A program made the translations under genes and the position numbers. The notes beneath the pieces were generated by a model. That model worked only from the letters and a program-made list of their open reading frames with translations. It was not told the DNA's origin and did no database searches. Of a stretch of 64,000 bases of DNA, positions 299 to 57,526 are shown in pieces; the first letter of the stretch is position 1; the number at the start of each line of letters is the position of its first letter. Origin of the DNA: Oscillospiraceae bacterium (GTDB taxonomy: Bacteria > Bacillota > Clostridia > Oscillospirales > Oscillospiraceae); assembly GCA_017652685.1 (NCBI GenBank), contig JAGCAN010000001.1:17311-81310 (forward strand). The letters run 5' to 3'.

Positions 299-319
299 AT
301 ACTCCAAGAGGATTATAGC

Positions 320-1624: not shown

Positions 1625-1635
1625 GGAGGTAACAC

Positions 1636-2910: not shown

Positions 2911-2923
2911 GGAGGAGTAATAA

Positions 2924-3361
2924 ATGGGAGACGTCTTAGATCTCAACAGCAGTATTAATCAGGAAAGTCAGTATGTAGATGTCCCGGAAGGCGAATATGA
3001 CGCCAGGATCGACCATGTCGAAAGCGGGGTCTGCCAGTGGGCCAATGAATACAACGGCAATCCGAACAGGATGGTATATGTCAACCTTGCCATGCCGGAC
3101 GGAAGTGAGGCACAGCTCCGCGACGAGTTTGTCCTCAACTCGGATTTCGAGTGGAAACTCTCACAGCTTTTCCTCGGGACCGGGCAGAAAAAGAAGGGCG
3201 AACCGCTGCCGAACCTCGGCAGGGCGCTGAATGATCTTCCGGGCCTTACATGCAGGGTCAGGGTCAAAAAGACAAAAGGCAAAGGTGACAAGAAAGATAC
3301 CACATACACAAACATCACATTCCTGGAGAAAAAGCAGCCTAAGTGGGGTGGTGGTTTCTGA
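2924..3361 (+). CDS. DUF669-like phage protein (usual partner of Sak4-type ATPases)
   Basis: Size, position directly after the AAA_24 gene, and a 'VPEGEYDARI' type N-terminus. Confidence 0.45.
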   Translation: MGDVLDLNSSINQESQYVDVPEGEYDARIDHVESGVCQWANEYNGNPNRMVYVNLAMPDGSEAQLRDEFVLNSDFEWKLSQLFLGTGQKKKGEPLPNLGRALNDLPGLTCRVRVKKTKGKGDKKDTTYTNITFLEKKQPKWGGGF

Positions 3362-4983
3362 TGATGAACCTCAGACCTTACCAGGAGCAGGCTTTCGCCG
3401 GAGTGTTCCGGGAATGGGATGGCGGCAGGCATAAGACGCTTGTCGTCATGCCAACCGGGACCGGCAAGACCATCGTGTTCGCCAAGATCGTCGAAGAATG
3501 TGTCCGGCGCGGATCGCGTGTGCTGATCATGGCACACCGCGGGGAACTCCTGGACCAGGCCGCTGACAAGATCTTCAAGGCGACCGGGCTCCGATCGTCA
3601 GTGGAGAAGGCGGAGCAGACCTGCATTGGGCAATGGTACCGCGTTGTGGTCGGATCAGTACAGACTCTGATGAGCGAGAAACGGCTGAGGCAGTTTCCGA
3701 AGGATTACTTCAATGTGATCATCGTCGATGAGGCTCATCATTGTGTCAGCTCGTCCTATCAGCGGGTACTGCAGTATTTCAGCGATTCCAACGTTCTGGG
3801 CGTCACGGCTACGCCTGACAGGGCCGACATGAAGAACCTCGGGAGCTATTTCGAGTCTTTAGCTTATGAGTACACCATGCCGGAAGCCATCCGGAGCGGA
3901 TACCTGGTGCCGATCAAGGCGCTTACGATCCCGCTCAAGATCGACATCAGCATGGTCGGGATCAGTGCCGGAGACTTCAAAGCCGGCGAGATCGGGACTG
4001 CACTTGACCCGTACCTGTTCCAGATCGCGGACGAGATGACAAGGTTCTGTAAGGACCGGAAGACGATCGTGTTCCTGCCGCTGATCGCCACATCACAGAA
4101 GTTTATGGGAATGCTCAATGAGCGGGGCTTCAGCGCGGCAGAAGTCAACGGCTCCAGCGAGGATAGGGCACAGATTCTGCAGGACTTCGAGTCTGGCAAA
4201 TACAACGTGATCTGCAATTCGATGCTGCTTACAGAAGGCTATGACTGCCCGGCAGTAGACTGCATCATTGTGCTCAGGCCGACAAGGTCAAGACCGCTTT
4301 ACGCTCAGATGATCGGACGTGGAACAAGGCTGTCCCCGGAGACCGGTAAGGGACATCTGCTGCTGATCGACTTCTTGTGGATGACGGAACGTCATGAGCT
4401 GTGCCATCCGGCCTCGTTGATCTGTGAGGATCCGGAAGTCGCCCAGCGTATGACGAAGAACCTGGAAGACAAGGCCGGCGAGGCTGTAGACATCGAAGAA
4501 GCTGAGAAGCGTGCATCTGAGGATGTGGTCGCCGAACGCGAGGAAGCACTCGCCAAGGAACTGGCAGCACAGCGCCGGAAGAAGAGCCAGCTGGTCGACC
4601 CGCTGCAGTATGCAATGAGTATCAACGCAAGGGATCTTGTCGATTATGTCCCGCCGTTCGGGTGGGCCGCTCAGGATCCTACCGCACAGCAGCGTGACAG
4701 GCTCGAGCATCTCGGGATTAATCCCGAAAATGTCAAGAGCCAGGGCGAAGCGGACATGCTCCTCAAGAAGCTCGGCGAAAGGAGCTCCGGAGGGCTTGCG
4801 ACTCCACGACAGATCAGACAGCTTGAGAACCGAGGCTTTCAAAATGTCGGGACATGGTCGTTTGATCAGGCCCGGAATCTGATCGACAGGATCGCGGCAA
4901 ACGGATGGAGAACACCAAGAGACATTAACCCTAAATCATATGTGCCTCAGGCAGATGAGCCTAAGGTATCAGGGTGGATTTGA
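3361..4983 (+). CDS. Superfamily-2 DEAD/DEAH-box helicase
   Basis: 'LRPYQEQA', 'VMPTGTGKT', 'IIVDEAHH', 'GVTATP', 'GRGTR'. ATG at 3361 overlaps the upstream stop (TGATG). Confidence 0.85.
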   Translation: MMNLRPYQEQAFAGVFREWDGGRHKTLVVMPTGTGKTIVFAKIVEECVRRGSRVLIMAHRGELLDQAADKIFKATGLRSSVEKAEQTCIGQWYRVVVGSVQTLMSEKRLRQFPKDYFNVIIVDEAHHCVSSSYQRVLQYFSDSNVLGVTATPDRADMKNLGSYFESLAYEYTMPEAIRSGYLVPIKALTIPLKIDISMVGISAGDFKAGEIGTALDPYLFQIADEMTRFCKDRKTIVFLPLIATSQKFMGMLNERGFSAAEVNGSSEDRAQILQDFESGKYNVICNSMLLTEGYDCPAVDCIIVLRPTRSRPLYAQMIGRGTRLSPETGKGHLLLIDFLWMTERHELCHPASLICEDPEVAQRMTKNLEDKAGEAVDIEEAEKRASEDVVAEREEALAKELAAQRRKKSQLVDPLQYAMSINARDLVDYVPPFGWAAQDPTAQQRDRLEHLGINPENVKSQGEADMLLKKLGERSSGGLATPRQIRQLENRGFQNVGTWSFDQARNLIDRIAANGWRTPRDINPKSYVPQADEPKVSGWI

Positions 4984-7259
4984 TGGACAACAGAACAGAT
5001 TTAGTTGAATTGCTTAAACATATAGATCCCGGGCTCCTTGACTATCAGGAATGGACGGATGTAGGCATGGCGCTCAAGCTCGATGGCTATCCCTGCAGCG
5101 TCTGGGATGACTGGAGCCGGAAGGATGCCGGACGCTATCACGCAGGTGAGTGTGCCCGGAAGTGGCGGACATTCAAACGTGACGAGGGCGTCACCGGCGG
5201 GACGATCTATCATCTGGCCGTCTCTCAGGGATGGGTACCGACACACGAAGCCGGCAGGATCCTGAGCATGGACGACTCGATCGAATATGAAGGCGTTGTG
5301 GTTGGCGAGGGATGGGCAGAGATACGCGAGTTCGATGAGCCTGCGAAATGGGAACCCGAACAGCAGCTGATCCGGTATCTCGAGACGCTCTTCCAGCCGG
5401 AGGAGATCTTCGGATATGTGACAGAGTCCTTCGAAAAAGCAGACAAGTCCGGGAAAAAGAAGCTCGTGCCCGCCAACAAGGGCGTGTATACGCTCCGCGT
5501 AGGCGAGATCGTGCAGAGGCTTAAGAGCGACACCATTGAGGATGTTATCGGCAAATACAAGCACGAAGCCGGCGCGTGGATCCGCTTCAATCCATTGGAT
5601 GGGAACGGCGTCAACAACGAGAACGTGACGGATTACCGGTACGCTCTGGTCGAGTCGGACAACATGTCCCTGGAAGCGCAGAACGGCCTGATCAGGCAGC
5701 TTAACCTGCCCGTAGCGGTCCTGATGTACTCCGGCGGCAAGAGTGTCCATGCGATCGTAAAAATCGAGGCAGATGACAAGCAGGAGTACCAGAAGCGTGT
5801 CAATTACCTGTACGACGTCTGCAAGAAGAACGGCATGGTGATCGATACGCAGAACCGGAACCCTTCCAGGCTGTCCAGAATGCCGGGATGTGAACGAGGA
5901 GAAAAAAAGCAGTTCATTATCGATACGAACATCGGCTGTAAGTCCTGGTCAGAATGGCATGAGTGGATCGAGGCTGTGAATGATGATCTTCCGGATATGG
6001 AGGAGCTTTCATCGGAATGGGACAGCCTTCCGCCACTGGCTCCGGAGCTGATCAAAGGAGTGCTCCGGGAAGGCCACAAGATGCTGATCGTGGGACCCTC
6101 TAAAGCCGGCAAGTCCTTTGACCTCATAGAGCTGTGTATAGCGATCGCTGAGGGCAGGTCATGGCATGGATGGGACTGTATGAAGGGACGTGTCCTTTAC
6201 GTCAATCTTGAACTTGACAGGGCATCCTGTCTGCACAGGTTCCGCGACGTTTACAATGCTGCAGGGATACCGCCCAGAAGCCTCAGCAACATCGATATAT
6301 GGAACTTAAGGGGAAGATCCGTCCCAATGGATAAACTGGCTCCTAAGCTCATCAGGAGGGCCAAGGACAGGCATTACAAGGCTGTTATCATCGACCCGAT
6401 CTACAAGGTCATCACCGGCGATGAGAACTCAGCTGACCAGATGGCCAAGTTCTGTAACCAGTTCGATAAGGTGTGCACAGAGCTGGGAGCCTCAGTGATC
6501 TATTGTCATCACCACTCTAAAGGATCACAGGGACAGAAGAAATCGATGGACAGGGCGTCAGGCTCCGGAGTCTTCGCAAGGGATCCGGACGCGCTGCTGG
6601 ACATGATAGAGCTCCCGCTCACGAATGCCATAATCGCGCAGGAGACCAACAAGGCCATCTGCCGTACCTGTATCCAATACCTGACGGCTTATTGCAAGAA
6701 CATTCCGTGGGAGACAGACCTGTCGCAGGACGATAAGTTGTCGGCCGGGATCATGCAGACTTACTGCGAAAACAAGCTCGATCAGTGGCAGCAGAAAGCA
6801 CTTGCCCGTCAGCTGGAAGAGGCAGTCAAGGGAGTGGAATCGCTATCGGGATGGAGGATCGAGGGGACGCTCAGAGAGTTCCCGAAATTCAAGCCGGTCA
6901 ACACATGGTTCCGGTATCCGATCCATACGCCTGACGAGTCAGGATGCCTGCAGGATATCCAGCCGGAAAGCGAATTGACTGGATATCAGAAGATGGTGGA
7001 ACAGCGAAAGAAGAAGGCAGAGAAGAAAAAAGAGGACACGATCAATCAGATCGAGATCGCTTTCGAGGGCGTCCAACAGGACGGCGTAGCGTCAGCGATC
7101 GACATCGCGGAAGAGATCGGAGTCGCTCCGGATACCATAAAACGATGGTTCGGCAAAGGAAAACGGAGCCGTCCGGAATACAAAAAACGGTTTGAAACTT
7201 TCGAAAATCCCGACGATCATAAGCTGTTTTTGAGACGCAAAGAGGGTACGGACAGATAG
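4983..7259 (+). CDS. Primase-helicase (PriCT-2-like N-terminus, primase-polymerase-like core, AAA_25/RepA-like P-loop)
   Basis: 'YQEWTDVGMALK...WDDWS' PriCT-2-like, 'SGGKSVHAIVKI', 'IVGPSKAGKS' Walker A, 'VIIDPIYK' Walker B. ATG at 4983 overlaps the helicase stop. Confidence 0.75.
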   Translation: MDNRTDLVELLKHIDPGLLDYQEWTDVGMALKLDGYPCSVWDDWSRKDAGRYHAGECARKWRTFKRDEGVTGGTIYHLAVSQGWVPTHEAGRILSMDDSIEYEGVVVGEGWAEIREFDEPAKWEPEQQLIRYLETLFQPEEIFGYVTESFEKADKSGKKKLVPANKGVYTLRVGEIVQRLKSDTIEDVIGKYKHEAGAWIRFNPLDGNGVNNENVTDYRYALVESDNMSLEAQNGLIRQLNLPVAVLMYSGGKSVHAIVKIEADDKQEYQKRVNYLYDVCKKNGMVIDTQNRNPSRLSRMPGCERGEKKQFIIDTNIGCKSWSEWHEWIEAVNDDLPDMEELSSEWDSLPPLAPELIKGVLREGHKMLIVGPSKAGKSFDLIELCIAIAEGRSWHGWDCMKGRVLYVNLELDRASCLHRFRDVYNAAGIPPRSLSNIDIWNLRGRSVPMDKLAPKLIRRAKDRHYKAVIIDPIYKVITGDENSADQMAKFCNQFDKVCTELGASVIYCHHHSKGSQGQKKSMDRASGSGVFARDPDALLDMIELPLTNAIIAQETNKAICRTCIQYLTAYCKNIPWETDLSQDDKLSAGIMQTYCENKLDQWQQKALARQLEEAVKGVESLSGWRIEGTLREFPKFKPVNTWFRYPIHTPDESGCLQDIQPESELTGYQKMVEQRKKKAEKKKEDTINQIEIAFEGVQQDGVASAIDIAEEIGVAPDTIKRWFGKGKRSRPEYKKRFETFENPDDHKLFLRRKEGTDR

Positions 7260-7500
7260 GGACAACATCGTGCGTCCCTAGTCCCTATGGGGTACGGACA
7301 CTAGGGACAGTACCGTGCGTCCGTACCTGCCGACACCTACGGACAGATAGGGACAACATCGTGCGTCCGTGTCCCTACCCCTAGGGACGAAGGTAGGGAC
7401 GGACGATGTGTATAACACTATAGTGTCCCGTACGTACCGTCCGCGTGGGTGAGACGGAGGGTGGGTGCTAAGCACACCCACCGTCCCTACCACACACGTA
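7247..7500. repeat. Iteron cluster / putative replication origin
   Basis: 31-bp direct repeat TACGGACAGATAGGGACAACATCGTGCGTCC at 7247-7277 and 7338-7368. Nine copies of TAGGGAC/GTCCCTA. Palindromes ACACTATAGTGT and GTCCCTAccccTAGGGAC. Confidence 0.6.
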
Positions 7501-7527
7501 CGGAGACAAAACGCGAAGGGAGGATGG

Positions 7528-7929
7528 ATGGAGATTAAATTTTTTATGGCGATGGACCCGCCGACCGTGACGGCACAGGAACACAAGGTCATGGTCCGCA
7601 ACGGTAAGCCGGTGTTCTATGATCCGCCGGAGCTCAAGGCGGCCCGGCAGAAACTAACAGACTACCTGGCACAGTACAAACCCGAACAGACGCTGACCGG
7701 TCCGCTGGAGCTGGTAACGACATGGTGCTTTCCGACAGAGGCCGAGTGGCAGTACAGCAGCTATAAGATCACAAGGCCGGACACGGATAACCTTAACAAG
7801 ATGCTTAAGGACTGCATGACGGCTGTGGGGTTCTGGCATGACGACGCGCAGGTGTGCCGTGAGATCATCGAAAAGTTCTGGGTAAGTCCGAACCTGCGCG
7901 GGATCTTTGTAAAGGTCACTCAGCTATGA
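7528..7929 (+). CDS. rusA: RusA-family Holliday junction resolvase
   Basis: 'PPTVTAQEHK', 'RPDTDNLNKMLKDCM', 'WHDDAQV'. RBS gaagggagg before the ATG at 7528. Confidence 0.85.
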   Translation: MEIKFFMAMDPPTVTAQEHKVMVRNGKPVFYDPPELKAARQKLTDYLAQYKPEQTLTGPLELVTTWCFPTEAEWQYSSYKITRPDTDNLNKMLKDCMTAVGFWHDDAQVCREIIEKFWVSPNLRGIFVKVTQL

Positions 7930-8147
7930 CGCCTATGACATACTTCAGGTTCTTCCAGGACTTGTGGAGGTTTTTTAAAAATCACGCCGAGCCGGTCTCA
8001 GCTGACAGCTGGTGGCAGCGTCTCGCTGATCAGGCGGACGAGCTCGCCAATCGGTACGGCAACACTGAATTTGTGATCCGGATGACATCAATAGTCGTCT
8101 GGGAAATTGACAGAATATTTCAAGAAAAAGAGGAGATGAAAAGATGA
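7926..8147 (+). CDS. Hypothetical protein (73 aa)
   Basis: ATGA-coupled ORF between rusA and the next gene. Confidence 0.5.
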   Translation: MTPMTYFRFFQDLWRFFKNHAEPVSADSWWQRLADQADELANRYGNTEFVIRMTSIVVWEIDRIFQEKEEMKR

Positions 8148-8767
8148 AAGATATCAGAGTAAAGCTTACGTTCACAGAGCCTATCCTGGGCACAGCAAGT
8201 GCAAACCCCGAAATTCACAGTGAGTACATCGCGTCGAAAGCTCCGGACGCGCCCAGCAAGGAAGAAGAGATCGCCGCGATCGGCGCCGAGGAGTATGAGG
8301 AGAAAGCAATGACAGTCTTCCCGCGCAACAACGAGGGGATCCCGATCCTGTTTGATTACCAGATCAAGGGATTTTTCAAAGACGCATGCTCCATGCTCCA
8401 GAAGTGTCGGGCCGGGAAAGGCGGCAAGCCGGAAGAGTTCGCGAAAGAATCCTGCGCACTCAAGGCGTACAAGAAGATCATCGATGGCTGCATCTTCGTG
8501 ATGGAACGCCAGATCCCGATCGAGCTCAATGGGGAGATGGGCAACCTCCAGCGACCGCTCCGCGGACAGACAGCACAGGGCGAACGGATCGCGCTGGCCA
8601 ACAGTGAGAAGGCCCCGGCAGGAAGTTCGGTGGAATTTACGATCAGGTGCCTGTCTGATACATACGCGCCGGCAGTGATGGAATGGCTGAACTACGGAGC
8701 CCTCAGGGGCATTGGCCAGTGGCGCAACGGATCATACGGCAGGTTCGAGTACAAGATCATCGAATAA
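8144..8767 (+). CDS. Hypothetical protein with RAMP-like sequence motifs (207 aa)
   Basis: 'IRVKLTFTEPILGTAS', 'GIPILFDYQIKGFFKDA', 'SEKAPAGSSVEFTI', and a C-terminal Gly-rich 'GALRGIGQWRNGSYGRFEY'. Motif-level resemblance only. Confidence 0.6.
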   Translation: MKDIRVKLTFTEPILGTASANPEIHSEYIASKAPDAPSKEEEIAAIGAEEYEEKAMTVFPRNNEGIPILFDYQIKGFFKDACSMLQKCRAGKGGKPEEFAKESCALKAYKKIIDGCIFVMERQIPIELNGEMGNLQRPLRGQTAQGERIALANSEKAPAGSSVEFTIRCLSDTYAPAVMEWLNYGALRGIGQWRNGSYGRFEYKIIE

Positions 8768-9633
8768 GCAGCGGAAAGGCTATCTGTCGCAAGGCAGAGC
8801 GACGGCATGGCGCTGACGGGCACAGTAACGCATAGCAAAGGCACGGATGGGAAAGGCGTAGCAACGGCATGGCAATGACGAGCTTAGAGATGCGAAGGCG
8901 ATGCACAGAGCCGCAAAGACGCGCAAAGGCTTAGTTGGGCAAATCGCAGAAAGCAAAGCAAAAGGCGAAGCAGTGCAATGCTTTGCAAGGGCAAGGCTCA
9001 TCAACGGGCGGCAAAGGCTAGGCTGTGTGGGGCAAGGCAGTGGCAACGAAAGGTAGTGCCCTGCAAAGGCAAGGCGAAGTTAGTCGGGGTGATGCGATGG
9101 CAAAAGCAGAGAAATGAGCGCCAAGCGGTGGCAAGGTGAAGCGAAGCGGTGGCAAGGCAAGGCATGTCGTGGCAAAACAGAGCAATGGCAGTGCAAATCG
9201 GAGTGCGGCAATGGCATAGCTCGGAATATCGCGGCATGGCAGCGGAATTGCAGAGATAGGTTATGCGACGGCATAGCATCACATTGCGGAGACCGGCAAA
9301 GGCGAGGAGTAGACGAGCGGATCCAAGGCAACGATTGGCAGCGAGTAGGGTCGCAAAGGCTTAGCACATCAATGACACGCTAAGGCTATGCAGAGACTAT
9401 TTTCGCTCAGCAGTGGAACTGTACAGCCACGGCATCGCAGAGGCTTGGCAATAGCTAAACGGAGCATAGCGGGGCGGAGCAACGGCATAGCAAGGAAATA
9501 CTAAGGACGCAGAGGCATTGCGAAGCGGCACGGAGCAGAGGCGATGAGGGGCTGAGCAGAGAAAAGCAGAGGATCAGCATAAAAGAGCGAAGCAAGGGCA
9601 ACAGTAACATCAGCAAAAGAAGGAGGATGAAAG
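8768..9633 (+). other. ORF-free, purine-skewed, GGCA-word-rich non-coding block (possible ncRNA or protein-binding array)
   Basis: All three stop codon types occur in every + frame. T is scarce (7 of 60 nt at 8941-9000). More than 30 GGCA words by manual count. Local duplications. Confidence 0.6.
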
Positions 9634-10023
9634 ATGGAAAATATGATCCTGATCAACGGAACAAAACTTAAGGCAGTCATCGCCGAGTGGGAACAGATAG
9701 GAGGCTACAGCGAAGGCGAAAAGAATATCCTGAGAGCCGTTATCAATGAGATCGAAGAGGCAATGGAGAACGGCCCGTGGATCCCGGTGGCTGAAGGGCT
9801 TCCGGAAGAGCCCGGCGAGTATCTGGTCACGGCCAGATGGGACGAGGATGAACCGTACGCGATCTTCATTGCGGACTACGGCAACAAGATAGATCCCAGG
9901 TGGGACGGCAGCCACAAGGTCTTCCAAAATGGTTTTGCGTTCGGCGAGATCTGGGGCGACAGCCTCGATAACCTCTTCGAGGTCACGGCCTGGATGCCTA
10001 AGCAGGAAACATATCAGTCATGA
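9634..10023 (+). CDS. DUF551-like phage protein
   Basis: 'GPWIPVAEGLPEEPGEYLVTARW' matches the DUF551 pattern. RBS aaggagga upstream. Confidence 0.55.
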   Translation: MENMILINGTKLKAVIAEWEQIGGYSEGEKNILRAVINEIEEAMENGPWIPVAEGLPEEPGEYLVTARWDEDEPYAIFIADYGNKIDPRWDGSHKVFQNGFAFGEIWGDSLDNLFEVTAWMPKQETYQS

Positions 10024-10205
10024 AACTGGTAAACGCGCATGCGGGAATGGAAATCGGTATCTGTAAATTAAACGATAAGCCGGCATTATACATCCAGGAC
10101 GGACAGTGGTGCAGGATATATGCAACTTTTTTGTCAGAGGAAAAAGCCGAGATGTTCCTGCACAAGCTGAAAAAATGGGACTTACATGGAGGGAATGATG
10201 GATAA
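10020..10205 (+). CDS. Hypothetical protein (61 aa)
   Basis: ATGA-coupled small ORF. Confidence 0.45.
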   Translation: MKLVNAHAGMEIGICKLNDKPALYIQDGQWCRIYATFLSEEKAEMFLHKLKKWDLHGGNDG

Positions 10206-10554
10206 CGTCTATTCACAAATGTTGATAACTGCAAAAAACGCCGGCATAAATGTGGTCGGTAAACATAAGGCAGCAAAACTCCTTGCACTCTGTTGCGCGA
10301 TAGGGGACGAACCGTTTGTGTTTAACAAAAAGCTGTATGAAGATGTCATGTATGCGGCTGATGTAACAGGAATTAAGCACATGAATTATCCGCTTGAGGA
10401 AATAACGTCTCTTATCAACAAATACTACAACGATTTGCAGATTGGGACAGCAGACTGGGTGCAGGAAATCAACGAAGAATATAAAACGAAGTTTCCAAAA
10501 AAAATGGAATCTGATGGAAGAGAGAAACTGATATGGCCGTCTATGCTTATTTAA
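10186..10554 (+). CDS. Hypothetical protein (122 aa)
   Basis: ORF in a low-GC accessory segment. No motif recognised. Confidence 0.5.
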   Translation: MEGMMDNVYSQMLITAKNAGINVVGKHKAAKLLALCCAIGDEPFVFNKKLYEDVMYAADVTGIKHMNYPLEEITSLINKYYNDLQIGTADWVQEINEEYKTKFPKKMESDGREKLIWPSMLI

Positions 10555-11165
10555 GAGTATCAACCGGAAAACAGGATGGAGAAAACCAGCGTCTTGGAGT
10601 TGATGAACTCGCAAAAAGGCTTGGTCTTGAAATCACAGAATACATCGATGATGAAGGCGTGAGTGGGACGAAAGAACCTGAAAAGCGCGAACTTGGAAAA
10701 CTGTTAAAGAAACTGAAACCAGGTGATGTACTTCTTGCCGGTGAAATTTCAAGACTCGGAAGATCACTATTCATGGTCATGAGGATATTGGAATATTGCA
10801 TGAATAACGACATAAGGGTCTATACAGCAAAAGATGGGTACGAGCTTGGTGACAACATTCAGTCTAAGGTTCTCGCATTTGCGTTCGGGCTATCCGCTGA
10901 GATTGAGCGTGAAATGATCAGTAGGCGAACAAAAGAGGCGCTTGCCAAGAAGCGGGCAGAAGGTGTGATTCTTGGCCGTCCCAAAGGGAGAAAATCAGGA
11001 CAGGTAAAACTTTCCGGGAAAGCGCACGATATCAAGGTACTGTTGGATTACGGAATCCCAAAAATGCAAATTGCGAAAAAGATGAAGGTTAACCGTAATA
11101 CGCTCGCGACATACCTGAAAGAAAGATATGAAGATGAACTTCTTGAACTTAAAAAGGAGAAATAG
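10533..11165 (+). CDS. Small serine recombinase (resolvase/invertase family) with C-terminal HTH
   Basis: 'YAYLRVSTGKQ' catalytic Ser region, 'GDVLLAGEISRLGRS', C-terminal 'IAKKMKVNRNTLATYLK'. Confidence 0.85.
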   Translation: MAVYAYLRVSTGKQDGENQRLGVDELAKRLGLEITEYIDDEGVSGTKEPEKRELGKLLKKLKPGDVLLAGEISRLGRSLFMVMRILEYCMNNDIRVYTAKDGYELGDNIQSKVLAFAFGLSAEIEREMISRRTKEALAKKRAEGVILGRPKGRKSGQVKLSGKAHDIKVLLDYGIPKMQIAKKMKVNRNTLATYLKERYEDELLELKKEK

Positions 11166-11167
11166 AT

Positions 11168-11920
11168 ATGAAAAACACCTGCAAGACCTGCACGCACAGC
11201 AAGCCCACGTACAAGGGCTATCGGTGCGAAATCAAGGGCAAAAAGACCAAGCTGACCGACACATGCAAAGACTGGTCACGCAAGGCAGGCATCATCCTGC
11301 TCGCCCTGATCCTGTCCGCCACACCGCTCACCGTACACGCACAGGGACGTGACTGGTGGCCGGATCAAGTGGAACAGGATGACTACTACCACAACCTTGA
11401 CAAGTTTGGCGAGTGGCCAGGGGACGTCATCACCAACGAGACAATGATCGAGACGGTAACCTTCCGCCCGAAAGTGCTGTCGGCGGTGACGTACAGCAAA
11501 AGCACCAAGATAACCGTGGATGCCACGACGGCAGCGAGAGTGATCATTGTACGGTACACGACAGACGGTAAGCACTGGGAACAGCGGAGCTTCCGGAACA
11601 TGAGCTACAAAGGCCCAGTCACAGCGCACAGGAAATGGCAGGTGAAAGCATACGTCAAGGAAAACAGATACTCCTCATGGTGCGCGAGGCAGTTTAAGCA
11701 AGCTGGCAAGACGATCGACTACAAAAAGACGGCAATGCTTAACAGCCCGATGGCCCAATTGTATTTCGACGACCACTTGATCGACGGTATCCGCAGGAAG
11801 GTAGCCAGTCCGGTCACGCTGAACATTCCCGTCAGGGCGAGGAGGATCAGAATTCGATATGCATACACGGGGCTGAAAAGGGAATGTTACTCCGAGTGGG
11901 CCGAGGTGAAAGCGAGGTAA
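11168..11920 (+). CDS. Membrane-anchored protein with N-terminal Cys cluster
   Basis: 'CKTCTHSKPTYKGYRCE...DTCKDW' followed by TM segment 'AGIILLALILSATPLTV'. The remainder is probably extracytoplasmic. Confidence 0.55.
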   Translation: MKNTCKTCTHSKPTYKGYRCEIKGKKTKLTDTCKDWSRKAGIILLALILSATPLTVHAQGRDWWPDQVEQDDYYHNLDKFGEWPGDVITNETMIETVTFRPKVLSAVTYSKSTKITVDATTAARVIIVRYTTDGKHWEQRSFRNMSYKGPVTAHRKWQVKAYVKENRYSSWCARQFKQAGKTIDYKKTAMLNSPMAQLYFDDHLIDGIRRKVASPVTLNIPVRARRIRIRYAYTGLKRECYSEWAEVKAR

Positions 11921-11924
11921 TGAA

Positions 11925-12152
11925 ATGTTTGACAAAAATGCAATCGCCAGAAATCTCAGAAAACACATGGAAGAGAAAAACATAAGCATAAACAAACTGG
12001 CCAGATTGGCCGATGTGATGCCGAGCACAGTTTGGCAATACATACATGGATATAGTACGCCAGTTATCTACAATCTGTATAAAATCAGCAAAGTACTCGG
12101 AATAAGCGTTGATAACCTGATCAAAGGGATAGACGACGGGAAAGAGGATTGA
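11925..12152 (+). CDS. XRE-family HTH regulator
   Basis: 'ISINKLARLADVMPSTVWQYIHG...ISKVLGISVDNLI'. Confidence 0.75.
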   Translation: MFDKNAIARNLRKHMEEKNISINKLARLADVMPSTVWQYIHGYSTPVIYNLYKISKVLGISVDNLIKGIDDGKED

Positions 12153-12155
12153 GCA

Positions 12156-12830
12156 GTGAACAGGATAAAAGACATCATCAAAGTGATTGATCAGATATCC
12201 GGAAGGTATTCGGCGTATGAAGTATTCACAGATTGGATCAGGTGCATGGCGATGTCAATATGCAATACGGTCTCGCCGATCCATGACAAAGTATGGCAGG
12301 AACGGGAACAGTCCTATATGGATACAATGCGGAAATACACGCCTGAAGAACAGGTCAAACTCTGTGAAATGATGTTGTGGCTCGTAGAGACACTGGATGA
12401 CGGCCCGTATGATGTCCTCGGGAAAATCTACATGGACGCCGGCATGGGAAGTAAAGCGGCCGGCCAGTTCTTCACACCATTTCATCTGTCAGTACTTACG
12501 GCAAAAATGTCATTGGGAGAATCAATTGAGTCATATCGGGATGAAATGACTAAGTTGGACATCAATGAACCGACATGCGGAGGAGGGGCGATGATCATCG
12601 CAGCAGCCAAAGTGTTGCAGGATGAAGGGATCAATTACCAGAAGGTGATGAAAGTGGTAGCACAGGATCTTGACTGGAAAGGAGTGTATATGTGCTATGT
12701 GCAGCTCAGTCTTCTGGGAATAGATGCGATTTGTGTGCAAGGCAATACGCTGGCTGATCCTTATGTTCCTGGCAAGACAGACAGGTCGCATATCATGAGG
12801 ACTCCGAAAAATATGGGGGTGCTGCTATGA
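12156..12830 (+). CDS. N6-adenine methyltransferase-like protein lacking catalytic motif IV
   Basis: 'GQFFTPFHL', 'INEPTCGGGAMI' (SAM motif I), 'VAQDLD', 'GNTL', then it stops with no NPPF/NPPY. GTG start. Confidence 0.6.
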   Translation: MNRIKDIIKVIDQISGRYSAYEVFTDWIRCMAMSICNTVSPIHDKVWQEREQSYMDTMRKYTPEEQVKLCEMMLWLVETLDDGPYDVLGKIYMDAGMGSKAAGQFFTPFHLSVLTAKMSLGESIESYRDEMTKLDINEPTCGGGAMIIAAAKVLQDEGINYQKVMKVVAQDLDWKGVYMCYVQLSLLGIDAICVQGNTLADPYVPGKTDRSHIMRTPKNMGVLL

Positions 12831-13915
12831 GTGATCAAAAAGAAAAGTTCAAAGACGAACTGATCATCGCACTCACGCCGTTCCTGCAGCCGGAATACAT
12901 CGAGGCCGTGAAAGCGAAGATCACGATCCTGACACACAACTACGAGATATCGAAGGCGGAAAACGAGATCATAGTCTACGAAGGAGACGTGAACGAGCGG
13001 ATTGTAAAAAGGTATCTCATGGCGAAGACGGCACAGGGGCTGTCGAAGAGGACGATAGAGTTCTATCAGCTGTCGTTGGAGCTCTTTTTCGGGGAAATAC
13101 AGAAACCGTTTACACAGATCACGGCCGACGACATCCGGTATTGGATCGCACTGAAACTGTCAAGGGACGGCGTGTCAAAGACAGGAGTGAACAACTACAG
13201 AAGGAACATCAGCGCTTTTTATACATGGCTGCAGAAAGAAGAGATCCTCCTCAAGAACCCGATGAACAAGGTCCCGCCGCTAAAGGAGACAAAGAAAAAG
13301 AAGCACGCGTTTGAACTCCTCGACCTAGAACTTATACGGATGGGATGCAGGGACGAGAGACAGAAGGCAATGGTGGAAATGCTCACATCGACATGGTGCC
13401 GGGCGGACGAACTGGTCAACATCAGGACGGATGATGTCGAAGAGGGCCGCGTGATGATACACGGCAAAGGAGACAAATACAGATACGTATTCATTAATGC
13501 CAGGGCAAAGCTCGCCTTAGATGTGTACCTGAATCAGAGAAAGGATAACAACCCATATCTGTTCCCGAGAGCCAAAAATATTTTGGGGAATATTGATAAA
13601 TATTCCAGACATGCGAAAGAAACGGGAACAGGCGCATGGGAATGGTGGAAGGATCCTGAGATGGTAAGCGAAGACGGCCACATAGACGAGAGCACGCTGG
13701 GCTCGATTATTAGGAAGATAGGACAAAGGGCGGGAGTCAAAAATGTCCACCCGCACAGATTCCGCAGGACAGGAGCAACGATGGCGCTCAGGGCCGGAAT
13801 GCCGATCACAACAGTATCTAAGCTGCTTGGGCACGAGAGTATTGAGACGACACAGATCTATCTGGATATCTCAGACAAGGACCTGGAGCAGGCACATGAG
13901 AAATATGTGTTCTAA
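12827..13915 (+). CDS. Tyrosine recombinase (XerC/D-like), paralog 1
   Basis: 'HPHRFRRTGATMAL', 'LLGHESIETTQIYL'. SAM-like N-domain 'SKRTIEFYQLSLELFF'. ATGA overlap with the upstream gene. Confidence 0.85.
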   Translation: MSDQKEKFKDELIIALTPFLQPEYIEAVKAKITILTHNYEISKAENEIIVYEGDVNERIVKRYLMAKTAQGLSKRTIEFYQLSLELFFGEIQKPFTQITADDIRYWIALKLSRDGVSKTGVNNYRRNISAFYTWLQKEEILLKNPMNKVPPLKETKKKKHAFELLDLELIRMGCRDERQKAMVEMLTSTWCRADELVNIRTDDVEEGRVMIHGKGDKYRYVFINARAKLALDVYLNQRKDNNPYLFPRAKNILGNIDKYSRHAKETGTGAWEWWKDPEMVSEDGHIDESTLGSIIRKIGQRAGVKNVHPHRFRRTGATMALRAGMPITTVSKLLGHESIETTQIYLDISDKDLEQAHEKYVF

Positions 13916-13943
13916 ATTGTCGGAAAGCGAGGTGACCATAAAT

Positions 13944-14150
13944 ATGGCTAATGGCAGCTATCACTTCTGCAGGGACTGTATCCACCATCACGGGATCACT
14001 ACCAGAGAGGCCAGGAAAGACGGGCACACATTTATCGTGCAGAAGTGCCCGGTATCCAGCGGAGAGTCATGGTGGTACAAAGCAGATTACGGAAAGCTCT
14101 TACACACCTGCCCGGAGTTCAGCCCGGAGCAGATACAGATGGAGGTTTGA
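13944..14150 (+). CDS. Small Cys-rich protein (68 aa)
   Basis: Internal ATG at 13944 after RBS-like gaaagcgaggtga. 'CRDCIHHH...CPVS'. Confidence 0.45.
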   Translation: MANGSYHFCRDCIHHHGITTREARKDGHTFIVQKCPVSSGESWWYKADYGKLLHTCPEFSPEQIQMEV

Positions 14151-14153
14151 AAG

Positions 14154-14399
14154 ATGAAGAATACATTGACAAATTTGAATAACTACCTGTTCGAGCAGCT
14201 GGAGCGGCTTAATGATGACTCGCTTTCGGAGGAAGAGCTCGATCGAGAGATGAAGAAGGCCGACGCGATCGTCAAGGTCTCCGACAAGATCATACAGACC
14301 GGCGAGCTCGCCCTCCGGACGATCAAGCATCGGGATGAATACGGATACAACAACAAGACCAATCAGATGCCGGACATCCTCCAGCTTGAGGCGAAGTGA
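14154..14399 (+). CDS. Hypothetical protein (81 aa)
   Basis: ORF tightly spaced with its neighbours. Confidence 0.5.
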   Translation: MKNTLTNLNNYLFEQLERLNDDSLSEEELDREMKKADAIVKVSDKIIQTGELALRTIKHRDEYGYNNKTNQMPDILQLEAK

Positions 14400-14400
14400 T

Positions 14401-15414: not shown

Positions 15415-15569
15415 CCCGTCCGGACGGTTAAGCATATACCGGAACAGGCAACCATCAACGCACGAGACAACAGAAAGGAGGATCCTTCTTGCGGTGTGCG
15501 GCGCGATTATTGCGAATGTGAATACCAGGCCCGCGGGGGAACCGGCGCGGGCATTATGAGGAGGAGAAA

Positions 15570-48191: not shown

Positions 48192-48212
48192 ATACTCCAA
48201 GAGGATTATAGC

Positions 48213-49517: not shown

Positions 49518-49528
49518 GGAGGTAACAC

Positions 49529-50803: not shown

Positions 50804-50816
50804 GGAGGAGTAATAA

Positions 50817-55822: not shown

Positions 55823-56040
55823 CGCCTATGACATACTTCAGGTTCTTCCAGGACTTGTGGAGGTTTTTTAAAAATCACGCCGAGCCGGTCTCAGCTGACA
55901 GCTGGTGGCAGCGTCTCGCTGATCAGGCGGACGAGCTCGCCAATCGGTACGGCAACACTGAATTTGTGATCCGGATGACATCAATAGTCGTCTGGGAAAT
56001 TGACAGAATATTTCAAGAAAAAGAGGAGATGAAAAGATGA
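55819..56040 (+). CDS. Hypothetical protein (second copy of 7926-8147)
   Basis: Identical translation at +47,893. Confidence 0.5.
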   Translation: MTPMTYFRFFQDLWRFFKNHAEPVSADSWWQRLADQADELANRYGNTEFVIRMTSIVVWEIDRIFQEKEEMKR

Positions 56041-56660
56041 AAGATATCAGAGTAAAGCTTACGTTCACAGAGCCTATCCTGGGCACAGCAAGTGCAAACC
56101 CCGAAATTCACAGTGAGTACATCGCGTCGAAAGCTCCGGACGCGCCCAGCAAGGAAGAAGAGATCGCCGCGATCGGCGCCGAGGAGTATGAGGAGAAAGC
56201 AATGACAGTCTTCCCGCGCAACAACGAGGGGATCCCGATCCTGTTTGATTACCAGATCAAGGGATTTTTCAAAGACGCATGCTCCATGCTCCAGAAGTGT
56301 CGGGCCGGGAAAGGCGGCAAGCCGGAAGAGTTCGCGAAAGAATCCTGCGCACTCAAGGCGTACAAGAAGATCATCGATGGCTGCATCTTCGTGATGGAAC
56401 GCCAGATCCCGATCGAGCTCAATGGGGAGATGGGCAACCTCCAGCGACCGCTCCGCGGACAGACAGCACAGGGCGAACGGATCGCGCTGGCCAACAGTGA
56501 GAAGGCCCCGGCAGGAAGTTCGGTGGAATTTACGATCAGGTGCCTGTCTGATACATACGCGCCGGCAGTGATGGAATGGCTGAACTACGGAGCCCTCAGG
56601 GGCATTGGCCAGTGGCGCAACGGATCATACGGCAGGTTCGAGTACAAGATCATCGAATAA
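56037..56660 (+). CDS. RAMP-like-motif protein (second copy of 8144-8767)
   Basis: Identical translation at +47,893. Confidence 0.6.
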   Translation: MKDIRVKLTFTEPILGTASANPEIHSEYIASKAPDAPSKEEEIAAIGAEEYEEKAMTVFPRNNEGIPILFDYQIKGFFKDACSMLQKCRAGKGGKPEEFAKESCALKAYKKIIDGCIFVMERQIPIELNGEMGNLQRPLRGQTAQGERIALANSEKAPAGSSVEFTIRCLSDTYAPAVMEWLNYGALRGIGQWRNGSYGRFEYKIIE

Positions 56661-57526
56661 GCAGCGGAAAGGCTATCTGTCGCAAGGCAGAGCGACGGCA
56701 TGGCGCTGACGGGCACAGTAACGCATAGCAAAGGCACGGATGGGAAAGGCGTAGCAACGGCATGGCAATGACGAGCTTAGAGATGCGAAGGCGATGCACA
56801 GAGCCGCAAAGACGCGCAAAGGCTTAGTTGGGCAAATCGCAGAAAGCAAAGCAAAAGGCGAAGCAGTGCAATGCTTTGCAAGGGCAAGGCTCATCAACGG
56901 GCGGCAAAGGCTAGGCTGTGTGGGGCAAGGCAGTGGCAACGAAAGGTAGTGCCCTGCAAAGGCAAGGCGAAGTTAGTCGGGGTGATGCGATGGCAAAAGC
57001 AGAGAAATGAGCGCCAAGCGGTGGCAAGGTGAAGCGAAGCGGTGGCAAGGCAAGGCATGTCGTGGCAAAACAGAGCAATGGCAGTGCAAATCGGAGTGCG
57101 GCAATGGCATAGCTCGGAATATCGCGGCATGGCAGCGGAATTGCAGAGATAGGTTATGCGACGGCATAGCATCACATTGCGGAGACCGGCAAAGGCGAGG
57201 AGTAGACGAGCGGATCCAAGGCAACGATTGGCAGCGAGTAGGGTCGCAAAGGCTTAGCACATCAATGACACGCTAAGGCTATGCAGAGACTATTTTCGCT
57301 CAGCAGTGGAACTGTACAGCCACGGCATCGCAGAGGCTTGGCAATAGCTAAACGGAGCATAGCGGGGCGGAGCAACGGCATAGCAAGGAAATACTAAGGA
57401 CGCAGAGGCATTGCGAAGCGGCACGGAGCAGAGGCGATGAGGGGCTGAGCAGAGAAAAGCAGAGGATCAGCATAAAAGAGCGAAGCAAGGGCAACAGTAA
57501 CATCAGCAAAAGAAGGAGGATGAAAG
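56661..57526 (+). other. Purine-skewed GGCA-rich non-coding block (second copy of 8768-9633)
   Basis: Same sequence at +47,893. Confidence 0.6.

What the first reader, a model, noticed from the sequence alone, without database searches (positions are those of the whole stretch)
8144..8767. Replication-module protein with RAMP (Cas7/Csm3/Cas6)-like motif layout
Seen: the 207-aa protein has four motifs in a particular order.
- An N-terminal beta-strand motif 'IRVKLTFTEPILGTAS' (aa 4-19).
- 'GIPILFDYQIKGFFKDA' (aa 65-81). This resembles the RAMP 'G-hP-hhPGSShKGhhR' segment.
- 'SEKAPAGSSVEFTI' (aa 154-167). This resembles the 'E-h-h-aGt-F-F-h' strand.
- A C-terminal glycine-rich loop 'GALRGIGQWRNGSYGRFEY' (aa 185-203). 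This resembles 'LGG...G.G.h.h'.

Established: this order of motifs is the hallmark of RAMP RNA-binding proteins of CRISPR effector complexes.

Inference (weak, motif-level only): this may be a lone, phage-borne RAMP-fold RNA- or ssDNA-binding protein. It sits directly upstream of an 860-nt repeat-word-rich non-coding block, which would be an unusual pairing outside any CRISPR-Cas locus.
Basis: inference. Interest (0 to 1): 0.6.

Follow-up and report, generated by a model that had tools for sequence, protein, structure and literature searches.

The report
Gut-phage VIPR RNA-guided system
A small Cas7-like (RAMP) protein of a temperate gut phage sits directly beside an 866-base array of about 167 five-base repeats. 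This pairing matches the recently described VIPR systems, in which phages use RNA guides against rival mobile elements, but here the array is unusually long and regularly punctuated.

Summary
ORF 8144-8767 encodes a 207-aa protein. Its confident AlphaFold model (pLDDT 90) matches only Cas7/Csm3-type RAMPs. Its family profile hits the Cas7 and Csm4 glycine loops.

That guess is supported, and such systems were described in 2026 preprints as VIPR: a Vipr protein plus vrRNA pentamer-repeat guides.

- **Protein:** the family profile aligns end to end with SUSP1 Vipr (hhalign E about 1e-5). It keeps the G-loop Trp-Arg that holds the repeat bases.
- **Array:** block 8768-9633 holds about 167 units, N-G-(C/A)-N-N, on the gene's strand. 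A 6-nt unit (NGCAAN, followed by GGCAN) occurs every 5-7 units, giving a coherent 5.2-nt period. No other place in the 2.28-Mb assembly shows this signal.
- **Conservation:** the gene-plus-array pair recurs in about 75-80% of 160 related loci, while the flanking genes do not.

It differs from the SUSP1 model. It has no discrete roughly 100-nt guides, no hairpin tails and no shared accessory gene.

This scan already reached the same VIPR reading on another genome. Verdict: a new member of a known kind, of moderate interest.

The parts
8144..8767 (+). vipr-like gene: a 207-aa minimal single-RRM RAMP with beta1, helix 1, a thumb hairpin (aa 133-157) and a G-loop GIGQWRNGSYGRF (aa 189-201)
   Evidence: ORF. 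AF2 model with pLDDT 90.4. Foldseek hits to Cas7/Csm3, E=1.9e-8. Profile hits to Cas7 and Csm4 G-loops. hhalign to SUSP1 Vipr, E=1.6e-5 over 174 columns, and to a 40-sequence Vipr profile, E=5.4e-5.
8768..9633 (+). vrRNA-like array of about 167 pentamer units with consensus N-G-(C/A)-N-N. It fills the whole intergenic space from the vipr stop codon to the ribosome-binding site of the next gene (AAGGAGG about 9619-9625, ATG at 9634).
   Evidence: The GC-dinucleotide period is 5.2 nt, with power 5.87 against shuffles of mean 0.67 and maximum 2.05. HMM segmentation gives 137 units of 5 nt and 28 of 6 nt, with G at 0.86 in position 2 and C at 0.70 in position 3. It is the only such signal among 44,530 windows of the 2.28-Mb assembly. 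There is no Rfam match, no promoter or terminator consensus inside it, and no inverted repeats.
8799..9599 (+). Punctuation junctions NGC(A/G)AN|GG(C/A). There are 16 exact GCRANGGM words, all on the + strand. Their spacings are 26, 31 or 36 nt, or sums of these. They divide the array into about 29 modules of mostly 5-7 units.
   Evidence: The pattern search finds 16 hits within the 866-nt array, against about 46 in the remaining 62 kb counted on both strands. Module table: 31 nt x11, 26 nt x7, 36 nt x3. In the junction logo, G at position 8 occurs in 28 of 28 junctions. Family-wide, the spacing between 6-nt units peaks at 6 units.
9213..9243 (+). Example of a typical 31-nt module: GGCAT AGCTC GGAAT ATCGC GGCAT GGCAGC
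   Evidence: Segmentation.
56037..57526 (+). Second, identical copy of the gene (56037-56660) and the array (56661-57526). This is an assembly concatemer of one circular 47,893-bp phage genome, not a second locus.
   Evidence: Window 1-16107 is identical to 47894-64000 with 0 mismatches. Contig C21 is 86,093 bp and is self-identical at offset 47,893.

Best explanation
This is a VIPR-type RNA-guided system carried by a 47.9-kb temperate phage of gut Clostridia-like bacteria.

Proposed mechanism:
1. The vipr-like gene and the array are transcribed together on the + strand. This is inferred: same strand, no terminator or promoter consensus between them.
2. The 207-aa RAMP polymerises on the purine-rich array RNA, one protomer per 5-nt unit. 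It grips the invariant G and the following C/A through the thumb arginines (R137/R140) and the G-loop W193/R194. This is inferred by analogy with the SUSP1 Vipr-vrRNA cryo-EM structure.
3. The variable bases are left exposed.
4. The array is punctuated every 5-7 units by a 6-nt unit, NGCAAN, followed by a strict GGCAN. This gives about 29 modules of 26, 31 or 36 nt. They are either separate short guides or register breaks about once per six protomers.
5. The ribonucleoprotein then recognises matching double-stranded DNA of rival phages, satellites or prophages in a gapped fashion and silences it. This step is inferred from the published VIPR work and was not shown here.

Shown here: the RAMP fold, homology to Vipr, the pentamer array and its selective constraint, and the conserved gene-array linkage.
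For: - **Fold:** AF2 pLDDT 90.4. Foldseek top hits are all Cas7-type RAMPs.
- **Existing annotation:** a 59%-identical gut-phage protein in BFVD is already named 'Cas system-associated RAMP superfamily protein' (E=1e-29).
- **Homology to Vipr:** hhalign of the family profile against SUSP1 Vipr gives probability 79% and E=1.6e-5, collinear over 174 columns. Against a 40-sequence Vipr profile it gives probability 66% and E=5.4e-5.
- **Contact residues:** the SUSP1 G-loop residues D177-W178-R179 align with the nearly invariant Q192-W193-R194. Thumb arginines are invariant in both families: R138 in the Vipr profile (A2), R137 here.
- **Array:** a coherent 5.2-nt period far above shuffles, unique in the 2.28-Mb assembly.
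- **Selection on the array:** in 3,626 units from 40 related arrays, position 2 is G in 92%, position 3 is C or A in 88%, and positions 1, 4 and 5 are variable. In alignable array segments, substitutions are 1.8% at the G against 10-13% at the variable positions.
- **Linkage:** arrays lie directly next to the gene on its strand in 64 of 80 viral and 59 of 80 genomic loci, upstream or downstream. Flanking genes are not shared.
- **Array turnover:** a protein 81% identical has an array with no detectable similarity. Whole modules are shared as cassettes at different positions in different arrays.
- **Literature:** VIPR is a minimal RAMP in phages plus flanking pentamer-repeat RNAs. Alternative repeat consensuses (NNNGG, YNNNG, NNNNG) and 'staggered' arrays with 1-nt offsets are reported (10.64898/2026.04.26.720920).
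Against: - The sequence link to bona fide Vipr is only moderate (hhalign probability 66-79%). A plain HMM search of the family profile finds Cas7 and Csm4 in the PDB but not SUSP1 Vipr.
- The array departs from the characterised type II design, as seen in the SUSP1 control locus. There is no strict GGY: position 1 is G in only 38% of units. There are no discrete guides of 9-16 repeats, no conserved hairpin tail and no individual promoters.
- No accessory (vap) gene is shared with relatives.
- No target was found under any rule tried.
- Transcription, processing and protein binding of the array are untested.
- About 20-25% of homologous loci show no adjacent array at my threshold.
Confidence: 0.85

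Rival explanations
1. The RAMP binds the array RNA, but the complex is not a DNA-targeting guide. It could be a protein-coated RNA scaffold or decoy, for example one that soaks up a host RAMP or CRISPR component, or a regulator of the phage's own downstream genes.
For: No targets were found under NN or NNN reading rules with skips 0-3 in the assembly, the phage itself or about 170 related loci. None was found in IMG/VR for a conserved two-module cassette. Junction units and position 4 are A-biased and conserved, which leaves little variable information per module. The G-loop spacing GIGxWxNxGYGRF resembles Cas7 and Csm4 more than SUSP1 Vipr.
Against: The variable positions turn over fast while the G anchor is kept. 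Modules are exchanged as cassettes. That is the behaviour of specificity-bearing guides, not of a fixed scaffold. The published VIPR systems with the same architecture act on DNA targets. My target search covered only about 6 Mb locally plus one exact pattern in IMG/VR, so it has little power.
Confidence: 0.08
2. The purine-rich block is a DNA-level element, such as a replication origin, iteron array or protein-binding array of the adjacent replication module. Its 5.2-bp period would be half of the 10.4-bp DNA helical repeat, and the RAMP-like protein would bind it as DNA.
For: In this phage the pair lies between the primase-helicase/RusA genes and further early genes. Twice 5.15-5.2 nt is 10.3-10.4, close to the B-DNA helical repeat.
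Against: In relatives the pair sits in unrelated gene contexts, and none of this window's replication genes recurs nearby. All 64 gene-adjacent arrays in the genome-derived loci have GGC above GCC, and every detected array in the viral loci does too. All are purine-rich, so they keep the gene's strand. A double-stranded binding array would not be expected to show this. There is no 10.4-nt spectral peak. The fold and the conserved residues are those of single-stranded-RNA-binding RAMPs.
Confidence: 0.04
3. The block is coding or is a low-complexity artefact, and the RAMP resemblance is incidental.
For: The mechanical ORF list shows ORFs of 88-95 aa across the block on both strands.
Against: The dominant period is 5.2 nt, not 3. 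Gene callers on independent assemblies call nothing there. The block is identical, or differs by 1-2 bases, in six independent assemblies of the same phage. The structural match to RAMPs has probability 1.00 with E down to 1.9e-8.
Confidence: 0.01

Closest known systems
VIPR type II system of Escherichia phage SUSP1 (Vipr + vrRNAs + vap1). Sources: bioRxiv 10.64898/2026.04.26.720920 and 10.64898/2026.04.26.720927; PDB 36pp.
   Same: - A phage-borne, roughly 200-aa single-RRM RAMP with thumb and G-loop.
- End-to-end profile alignment (E about 1e-5).
- The G-loop Trp-Arg pair and a thumb Arg are conserved.
- It lies next to same-strand intergenic RNA built of 5-nt units with conserved G/pyrimidine positions and variable positions.
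- There is no CRISPR array and no cas gene among the neighbours examined.
   Different: - SUSP1 has four discrete vrRNAs of about 100 nt, each with about 12-16 strict GGT-NN units plus a hairpin tail, placed on both sides of a vipr-vap1 operon.
- Here there is one continuous 866-nt tract of about 167 units.
- Only the second G is near-invariant, and position 1 is free.
- H17 and D177, which read the first G in SUSP1, are T17 and Q192 here.
- A 6-nt unit occurs every 5-7 units.
- There is no tail and no shared vap.
Other VIPR types in the same preprint: alternative consensuses NNNGG, YNNNG and NNNNG; 'staggered arrays' whose vrRNAs are offset by 1 nt; stand-alone vipr genes.
   Same: The G-(C/A)-N-N-N unit reads as a YNNNG-like repeat. 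Modules of 5n+1 nt, where the end of one abuts the start of the next, fit the verbal description of staggered arrays. The absence of a vap fits the 'stand-alone gene' cases.
   Different: I could not see the figures or tables. I therefore cannot say which of the seven types, if any, this gut Clostridia-phage family belongs to. I also cannot say whether arrays of this length (167 units, 29 modules) and this junction motif were described.
CRISPR Cas7-family RAMPs (type VII Cas7, type III Csm3/Cmr4, type IV Csf2)
   Same: These are the best structural matches (TM about 0.5, E down to 1.9e-8). The G-loop has the canonical GxGxxxxxGxG spacing. Their known mode is one protomer per RNA repeat length, with a thumb that flips bases.
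   Different: - Those proteins bind 6-nt steps of a crRNA spacer inside multi-subunit effector complexes encoded beside CRISPR arrays and other cas genes.
- Here the step is 5 nt and the RNA is itself a tandem repeat.
- The protein stands alone in a phage.
- Sequence identity is only 10-17%.

Membership tests
VIPR system (Vipr + vrRNA) | Vipr protein: a minimal RAMP with a single RRM core, a thumb and a glycine-rich loop | tested here: met
   AF2 model, pLDDT 90.4, with beta1-alpha1-thumb hairpin-alpha2-G-loop-beta4. Foldseek hits to Cas7/Csm3 with probability 1.00. Profile hits to Cas7 and Csm4 G-loops.
VIPR system (Vipr + vrRNA) | Sequence homology to established Vipr proteins | tested here: met
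   hhalign of the family profile against SUSP1 Vipr gives E=1.6e-5, probability 79%, 174 collinear columns. Against a 40-member Vipr profile it gives E=5.4e-5, probability 66%. The strength is only moderate. A plain hmmsearch of the PDB did not list Vipr.
VIPR system (Vipr + vrRNA) | Residues that hold the repeat bases: thumb Arg and G-loop Asp-Trp-Arg, plus His17 for the first G | tested here: inconclusive
   W193-R194 and R137/R140 are invariant or nearly so and align with W178-R179 and the thumb Arg. D177 is Q192 and H17 is T17 here. This agrees with loss of specificity for the first G in the units, but it rests on a weak pairwise alignment.
VIPR system (Vipr + vrRNA) | Adjacent intergenic tandem pentanucleotide repeats with conserved and hypervariable positions (GGY/NN or a related consensus) | tested here: met
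   About 167 units N-G-(C/A)-N-N. Family-wide, G is at 0.92. The substitution rate is 1.8% at G against 10-13% at N positions. This is a related consensus, not strict GGY.
VIPR system (Vipr + vrRNA) | Discrete vrRNAs of 9-16 repeats capped by a conserved structured 3' tail (type II design) | tested here: not met
   The tract is continuous, with no inverted repeats and no Rfam or ribozyme match. Its modules have 5-7 units and are delimited by NGCAAN|GGCAN. The SUSP1 control shows the tails clearly. The preprint allows other array designs, so this excludes type II membership, not VIPR membership.
VIPR system (Vipr + vrRNA) | Phage or provirus location, outside CRISPR-cas loci | tested here: met
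   The element is a 47,893-bp circular element with a tyrosine integrase, serine recombinases, primase-helicase and RusA. Relatives lie on IMG/VR viral contigs and in prophage-like regions of gut bacterial genomes. The neighbouring genes examined are not cas genes. The whole phage was not scanned exhaustively for cas genes.
VIPR system (Vipr + vrRNA) | Accessory vap gene in an operon with vipr | tested here: not met
   The 73-aa ORF that overlaps the vipr start and all other flanking genes have no homologue within 3-4 kb of vipr in 81 related loci. The preprint also reports stand-alone vipr genes.
VIPR system (Vipr + vrRNA) | Array is expressed as RNA and co-purifies with Vipr | not testable with these tools
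VIPR system (Vipr + vrRNA) | Variable bases match natural DNA targets under a gapped rule (1-nt skip) | tested here: inconclusive
   No signal above shuffled guides for NN or NNN with skips 0-3 in about 6 Mb of local sequence. There were 0 IMG/VR hits for one conserved two-module pattern. The search has low power.
CRISPR-Cas Cas7 (class 1 effector backbone) | Encoded with other cas genes next to a CRISPR repeat-spacer array; binds crRNA in 6-nt steps | tested here: not met
   No cas neighbours were found among the ORFs examined. The adjacent array has a period of 5.2 nt, not repeats of 24-48 nt with spacers.

The most novel reading that the evidence does not exclude
This very abundant gut Clostridia/Coriobacteriia-phage family may be a distinct VIPR type with its own code.
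- Guides would be 26, 31 or 36-nt modules, that is 5-7 pentamers plus one extra base, about one extra base per six protomers.
- Modules would be delimited by NGCAAN|GGCAN junctions within one long transcript.
- Only one G per unit would be anchored, and up to three bases per unit would be read.
- The reading rule would therefore differ from GGY/NN with a 1-nt skip.

Its G-loop keeps the canonical CRISPR-RAMP spacing, so it could lie closer to the Cas7/Cas5 root than the SUSP1 type.
Probability: 0.3. Interest if true: 0.7.

Novelty: new member of a known kind. Interest (0 to 1): 0.45.

Why it matters
VIPR was reported only in 2026 and has been characterised in Escherichia and Pseudomonas phages. 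This locus shows the same logic in temperate phages of human and animal gut anaerobes.

The protein family is far larger in public metagenomes than the model family:
- At least 8,000 clusters at 90% identity, which was the scoring cap, and 1,717 clusters at 50% identity.
- 529 proteins for the SUSP1 type in the same database.

Relatives occur in Lachnospiraceae, Oscillospiraceae, Faecalibacterium, Eggerthella, Megasphaera and others.

The arrays here are long, about 29 modules, and are built from exchangeable cassettes. If they are guides, they record phage-phage conflicts in the gut. The regular 5n+1 punctuation offers a testable handle on how Vipr filaments start, stop or are processed.

Tried and rejected
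- **Library annotation.** Pfam, PHROGs and NCBIfam give nothing for the protein.
- **Strict YNNGG runs.** There are no runs of 3 or more strict YNNGG units on either strand. The signal is also invisible at exactly 5.0 nt. It appears only when periods of 5.1-5.3 are scanned.
- **Tandem Repeats Finder.** It sees almost nothing in the block.
- **Target searches in local sequence.** I slid windows of 6-10 units and whole modules over the rest of the assembly, the phage itself and the related loci. Reading rules were NN or NNN per unit, target skips 0-3, and four ways of treating the extra base. Observed scores equalled shuffled-guide scores everywhere. The only exception was the trivial self-match of the array.
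- **Target search in IMG/VR.** One exact scan for a two-module cassette conserved in seven of the related arrays, under the 1-nt skip rule, gave 0 hits.
- **In-frame codon test.** I asked whether the three variable bases per unit behave as in-frame codons. Stop triplets are only mildly depleted (0.77 of expectation), so the idea is not supported.
- **Other RNA or signal elements.** No ribozymes or other Rfam families, and no promoter or terminator consensus inside the array.
- **RNA folding.** The z-score is -2.65 from only 20 shuffles, and the predicted pairs are long-range and not credible.
- **Solo arrays.** None elsewhere in the assembly.
- **Polarity of array diversification.** My end-anchoring classification was not clean enough to support a claim.
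- **Tool limits.** The preprint's figures and data tables are not held as text, so the VIPR type could not be assigned.
Full report
**1. The observation**

Curated libraries are silent. Pfam and PHROGs give nothing. NCBIfam gives only a meaningless TrbG hit at E=0.11. PADLOC gives a weak Cas7_IIId hit on aa 61-98 at E=0.01.

The protein is nevertheless far from an orphan:
- All 8,000 scored candidates in the 90%-clustered metagenome database pass E<=0.001, which is the scoring cap. None has an informative name.
- An exhaustive HMMER scan of 50%-identity representatives finds 1,717 clusters at E<=1e-3 and 329 at E<=1e-30.

**2. The fold**

I aligned 80 diverse members (A1).
- Invariant residues: G76, R137, S154, G199.
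- Nearly invariant residues include L15-G16, Y72, K79, P138-L139-R140, Q192-W193-R194-N195 and F201.

The AlphaFold2 model built on this alignment is confident (mean pLDDT 90.4, pTM 0.83). Its elements are:
- beta1, aa 2-10
- a poorly conserved helical insert, aa 24-54
- a strand plus helix 1, aa 67-85
- a long beta-hairpin, aa 133-157
- a strand, aa 162-169
- helix 2, aa 172-188
- a glycine-rich loop, then the last strand, aa 201-205

This is the RAMP layout of RRM core, thumb and G-loop.

Searches with the model and the profile agree:
- Foldseek against the PDB returns 191 matches at E<=0.001. The top 50 are all subunits of type VII, III and IV effector complexes or Cas7-11. The best is 8z4j_J at E=1.9e-8, with TM about 0.5.
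- Against BFVD, the best hit (E=1e-29, 59% identity) is a human-gut Siphoviridae protein already labelled 'Cas system-associated RAMP superfamily protein'.
- The A1 profile hits type VII Cas7 (E=5.9e-5) and Csm4 (E=1.8e-3) across the G-loop.

It is not met, and the RAMP reading stands.

**3. The lead to VIPR**

A single-sequence PDB search listed, at a non-significant E=1.2, the chain 36pp_D, 'SUSP1 Vipr protein'. A literature search found three 2026 preprints from one group.

- **10.64898/2026.04.26.720920.** VIPR systems consist of a minimal RAMP (Vipr) in phages and vrRNAs made of tandem GGY/NN pentamers plus a 3' tail.
  - The NN bases read double-stranded DNA with one skipped base per unit, which silences rival phages and satellites.
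  - Seven types exist. Alternative consensuses are NNNGG, YNNNG and NNNNG.
  - Array designs include 'staggered' arrays whose vrRNAs are offset by 1 nt.
  - Some vipr genes stand alone.
- **10.64898/2026.04.26.720927.** This paper gives cryo-EM structures.
  - One protomer binds per repeat, in a filament with six-subunit periodicity.
  - The first G is read by H17 and D177, the second G by thumb R138 and W178, and the pyrimidine by R179 and neighbours.
- **10.64898/2026.10.15.759431.** This paper shows the biology in SUSP1 and a satellite.

**4. Is the protein a Vipr?**

I fetched the SUSP1 locus (KT454805.2, L091).
- hhalign of A1 against SUSP1 Vipr gives probability 79% and E=1.6e-5, with 174 collinear columns covering both proteins end to end.
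- Against a 40-sequence profile of SUSP1-type Viprs (A2) it gives probability 66% and E=5.4e-5.

The G-loops align as GIGQWRNGSYGRF (here) and GVGDWRP-RFGRF (SUSP1).
- W178/R179 correspond to the nearly invariant W193/R194.
- D177 corresponds to Q192, and H17 to T17.
- Both families have invariant thumb arginines.

The link is moderate, not overwhelming. The plain HMM search did not list Vipr. The loop spacing here is the canonical Cas7/Csm4 one.

**5. The non-coding block is a pentamer array**

Block 8768-9633 is 866 nt with G 305, A 277, C 175 and T 109. Strict YNNGG runs are absent, and there is no power at exactly 5.0 nt.

GC-to-GC distances peak at 5/6, 10/11, 15/16, 20/21 and 26 nt. A fine spectrum shows one sharp peak at 5.2 nt. 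Its power is 5.87, against shuffles of mean 0.67 and maximum 2.05 taken over all periods.

A cyclic HMM splits the tract into about 167 units:
- position 1: G 0.41 / A 0.36
- position 2: G 0.86
- position 3: C 0.70
- positions 4-5: variable and A-rich
- 137 units have 5 nt and 28 have 6 nt

The 6-nt units recur every 5-7 units. They read NGC(A)(A)N and are always followed by a unit starting GG (28 of 28), usually GGC. This gives about 29 modules, most often 31 nt (11), 26 nt (7) or 36 nt (3).

An HMM-independent check agrees. The word GCRANGGM occurs 16 times in the array, all on the + strand. Spacings are 26, 31 or 36 nt, or their sums. About 46 further occurrences lie in the other 62 kb counted on both strands.

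Other properties:
- The tract has no inverted repeats.
- It has no Rfam match and no promoter or terminator consensus.
- It has no 3-nt periodicity, and independent assemblies' gene calls leave it empty.
- It starts right after the vipr stop codon and ends at the next gene's ribosome-binding site.
- Across the whole 2.28-Mb assembly (44,530 windows), only the two assembly copies of this array exceed a power of 1.2 at 5.1-5.25 nt. The next best window scores 0.75.

**6. Conservation of the pair**

| Set | Loci with an adjacent array | Details |
|---|---|---|
| 80 IMG/VR loci, proteins 56-65% identical | 64 | Tracts of 250-725 nt. Most lie within about 100 nt of the gene, a few 250-740 nt away, downstream or upstream. 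All are on the gene's strand (GGC far above GCC, 57-70% purine). Nothing else in the 8-kb loci passes the threshold. |
| 80 loci from species-representative bacterial genomes, 48-64% identical | 59 | All 64 adjacent arrays are on the gene's strand. Some loci have arrays on both sides. The best period is 5.1-5.2 nt in 76 of 80. |

The genome loci come from Lachnospiraceae, Oscillospiraceae, Faecalibacterium, Ruminococcus, Eggerthella, Olsenella, Megasphaera and a few Bacteroidales bins.

Pooled over 40 arrays (3,626 units):
- G at position 2 is 0.92.
- Position 3 is C 0.56 / A 0.32.
- Positions 1, 4 and 5 are close to uninformative.
- The mean unit length is 5.155 nt.
- The spacing between 6-nt units peaks at 6 units (165), then 5 (122) and 7 (115).
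- The junction consensus is NGCAAN followed by GGCAN.

In alignable segments of related arrays, the mismatch rate is 1.8% at the G, 7.8% at position 3 and 10-13% at positions 1, 4 and 5. The pairs are not independent, so this is indicative only.

Arrays turn over faster than the protein:
- Six independent assemblies of the same phage carry the same array, with 0-2 differences.
- The array next to an 81%-identical protein shows no detectable similarity.
- Whole modules recur as cassettes at different offsets in different arrays. One indel removes exactly one 5-nt unit.

None of this window's neighbours has a homologue near vipr in 81 related loci. The neighbours tested were primase-helicase, RusA, the 73-aa ORF that overlaps the vipr start, the DUF551-like gene and the resolvase. 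The conserved unit is therefore the gene plus the array, with no shared accessory gene.

**7. Comparison with the model system**

The SUSP1 control locus shows what type II looks like.
- It has discrete vrRNAs such as ATGGTAAGGTGTGGTTCGGTAAGGTGCGGTGGGGTAAGGCTAGGTTTGGTCTGGTGTGG...
- The period is about 5 nt. Strict GGT-NN pentamers are visible in the sequence, and spectral peaks lie at 4.95-5.1 nt.
- Each vrRNA is followed by a hairpin tail and separated from the next by spacer sequence, on both sides of vipr-vap1.

The present array differs in every one of these respects. It keeps the principle of a conserved anchor plus variable bases in a 5-nt step.

The loss of specificity for the first G parallels the replacement of the two residues that read it in SUSP1 (H17 to T17, D177 to Q192). 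This is an inference from a weak alignment.

The 5n+1 modules fit the preprint's verbal description of staggered arrays and a YNNNG-like consensus. I could not see the figures or tables. The type assignment therefore remains open.

**8. Mechanism**

My best reading, at 0.85 confidence, is a VIPR-type ribonucleoprotein.
- The array is co-transcribed with vipr.
- It is coated one protomer per unit through the G anchor.
- It is organised into modules of 5-7 units, which are either processed guides or register breaks about once per six protomers.

The average of one extra base per six units equals the six-subunit periodicity reported for the SUSP1 filament. That is a coincidence worth testing, not evidence. 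The target-recognition and silencing steps are inferred from the literature.

I could not find targets. Observed scores equalled shuffled controls for every rule tried on about 6 Mb of local sequence. One exact IMG/VR scan found nothing. A codon-like test of the variable triplets was negative. These searches have little power for modules that specify 10-18 bases.

**9. Rivals**

- **Non-targeting RNA scaffold or decoy, 0.08.** The fast, cassette-like turnover of the variable positions argues against it.
- **DNA-level origin or iteron array, 0.04.** It rests on twice 5.2 being about 10.4 bp. Against it stand the fixed strand relation to the gene, the lack of conserved replication neighbours and the RNA-binding fold.
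- **Coding or artefact, 0.01.** The 5.2-nt period and the identical sequence in independent assemblies exclude it.

**10. Context**

- The window holds 1.34 copies of a 47,893-bp unit: positions 1-16107 equal 47894-64000.
- The contig holds 1.8 copies. The element is therefore a circular or concatemeric phage genome binned with a 2.28-Mb MAG.
- It encodes an SMC-like ATPase, an AAA_24 protein, an SNF2-type helicase, a primase-helicase, RusA, a small serine invertase, a tyrosine integrase and a large serine recombinase. It is therefore temperate.
- In the named-phage collection, only four uncultured human-faecal phages carry a homologue.

**11. Novelty**

The class is known from 2026 preprints. 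An earlier follow-up in this scan reached the same VIPR reading for a gut-phage relative on another genome (e1-2905847). I reached it independently through the PDB hit and tested it here. I file this as a new member of a known kind.

Points that may go beyond what is published:
- the junction motif
- the 26/31/36-nt module structure and its family-wide regularity
- the single-G anchor
- the size of the family in gut metagenomes

The probability that this amounts to a distinct type with its own reading rule is about 0.3.

Noticed in passing
window 1-16107 and 47894-64000: The window is a concatemer. The two stretches are identical (0 mismatches in 16,107 bases). The whole 86,093-bp contig is self-identical at offset 47,893. 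The element is therefore a circular or terminally redundant 47.9-kb phage genome assembled 1.8 times over, and every feature below 16,108 appears twice.
   Followed up: yes
window 7926-8147 (+): A 73-aa ORF whose stop overlaps the vipr start (ATGA) has only a weak match to PHROG 3745 (E=8e-4). It is positioned like an accessory gene but has no homologue next to vipr in 81 related loci.
   Followed up: partly
window 10533-11165 (+), 12827-13915 (+), 43658-44974 (-): One 47.9-kb phage carries three site-specific recombinases: a small serine resolvase/invertase, a tyrosine integrase and a large serine recombinase.
   Followed up: no
L107, L142, L151, L168; also L044, L099, L135: Some relatives carry pentamer arrays on both sides of the vipr gene, or a second array 0.6-2 kb away. 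This recalls the upstream-plus-downstream vrRNAs of SUSP1.
   Followed up: no
L016, L019, L025, L043, L052, L066, L073 (array segments shown): A two-module cassette is shared by seven arrays at different offsets: GGCAC AGCTC GGAAT TGCTG ATAAY AGCAT GGCTAT, then GGCAC GGCTT TGAGA CGTGG CGCAAA. One variant differs by exactly one extra 5-nt unit, so modules behave as exchangeable units.
   Followed up: partly
L087, L088 (relatives with 81% identical protein): In these phages, vipr and its array lie between a PAPS-reductase/SSB/YfdP block and a dUTPase gene. This is a different context from the window's.
   Followed up: no
window 36873-39095 (+): A 740-aa protein has a C-terminal GDSL lipase/acylhydrolase domain. 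It is probably a tail-associated esterase.
   Followed up: no
L129, L141, L156, L158 and about 15 other loci: About 20-25% of homologous loci show no adjacent 5.2-nt-period tract at my threshold. These may be vipr genes with short, degenerate or remote arrays.
   Followed up: no
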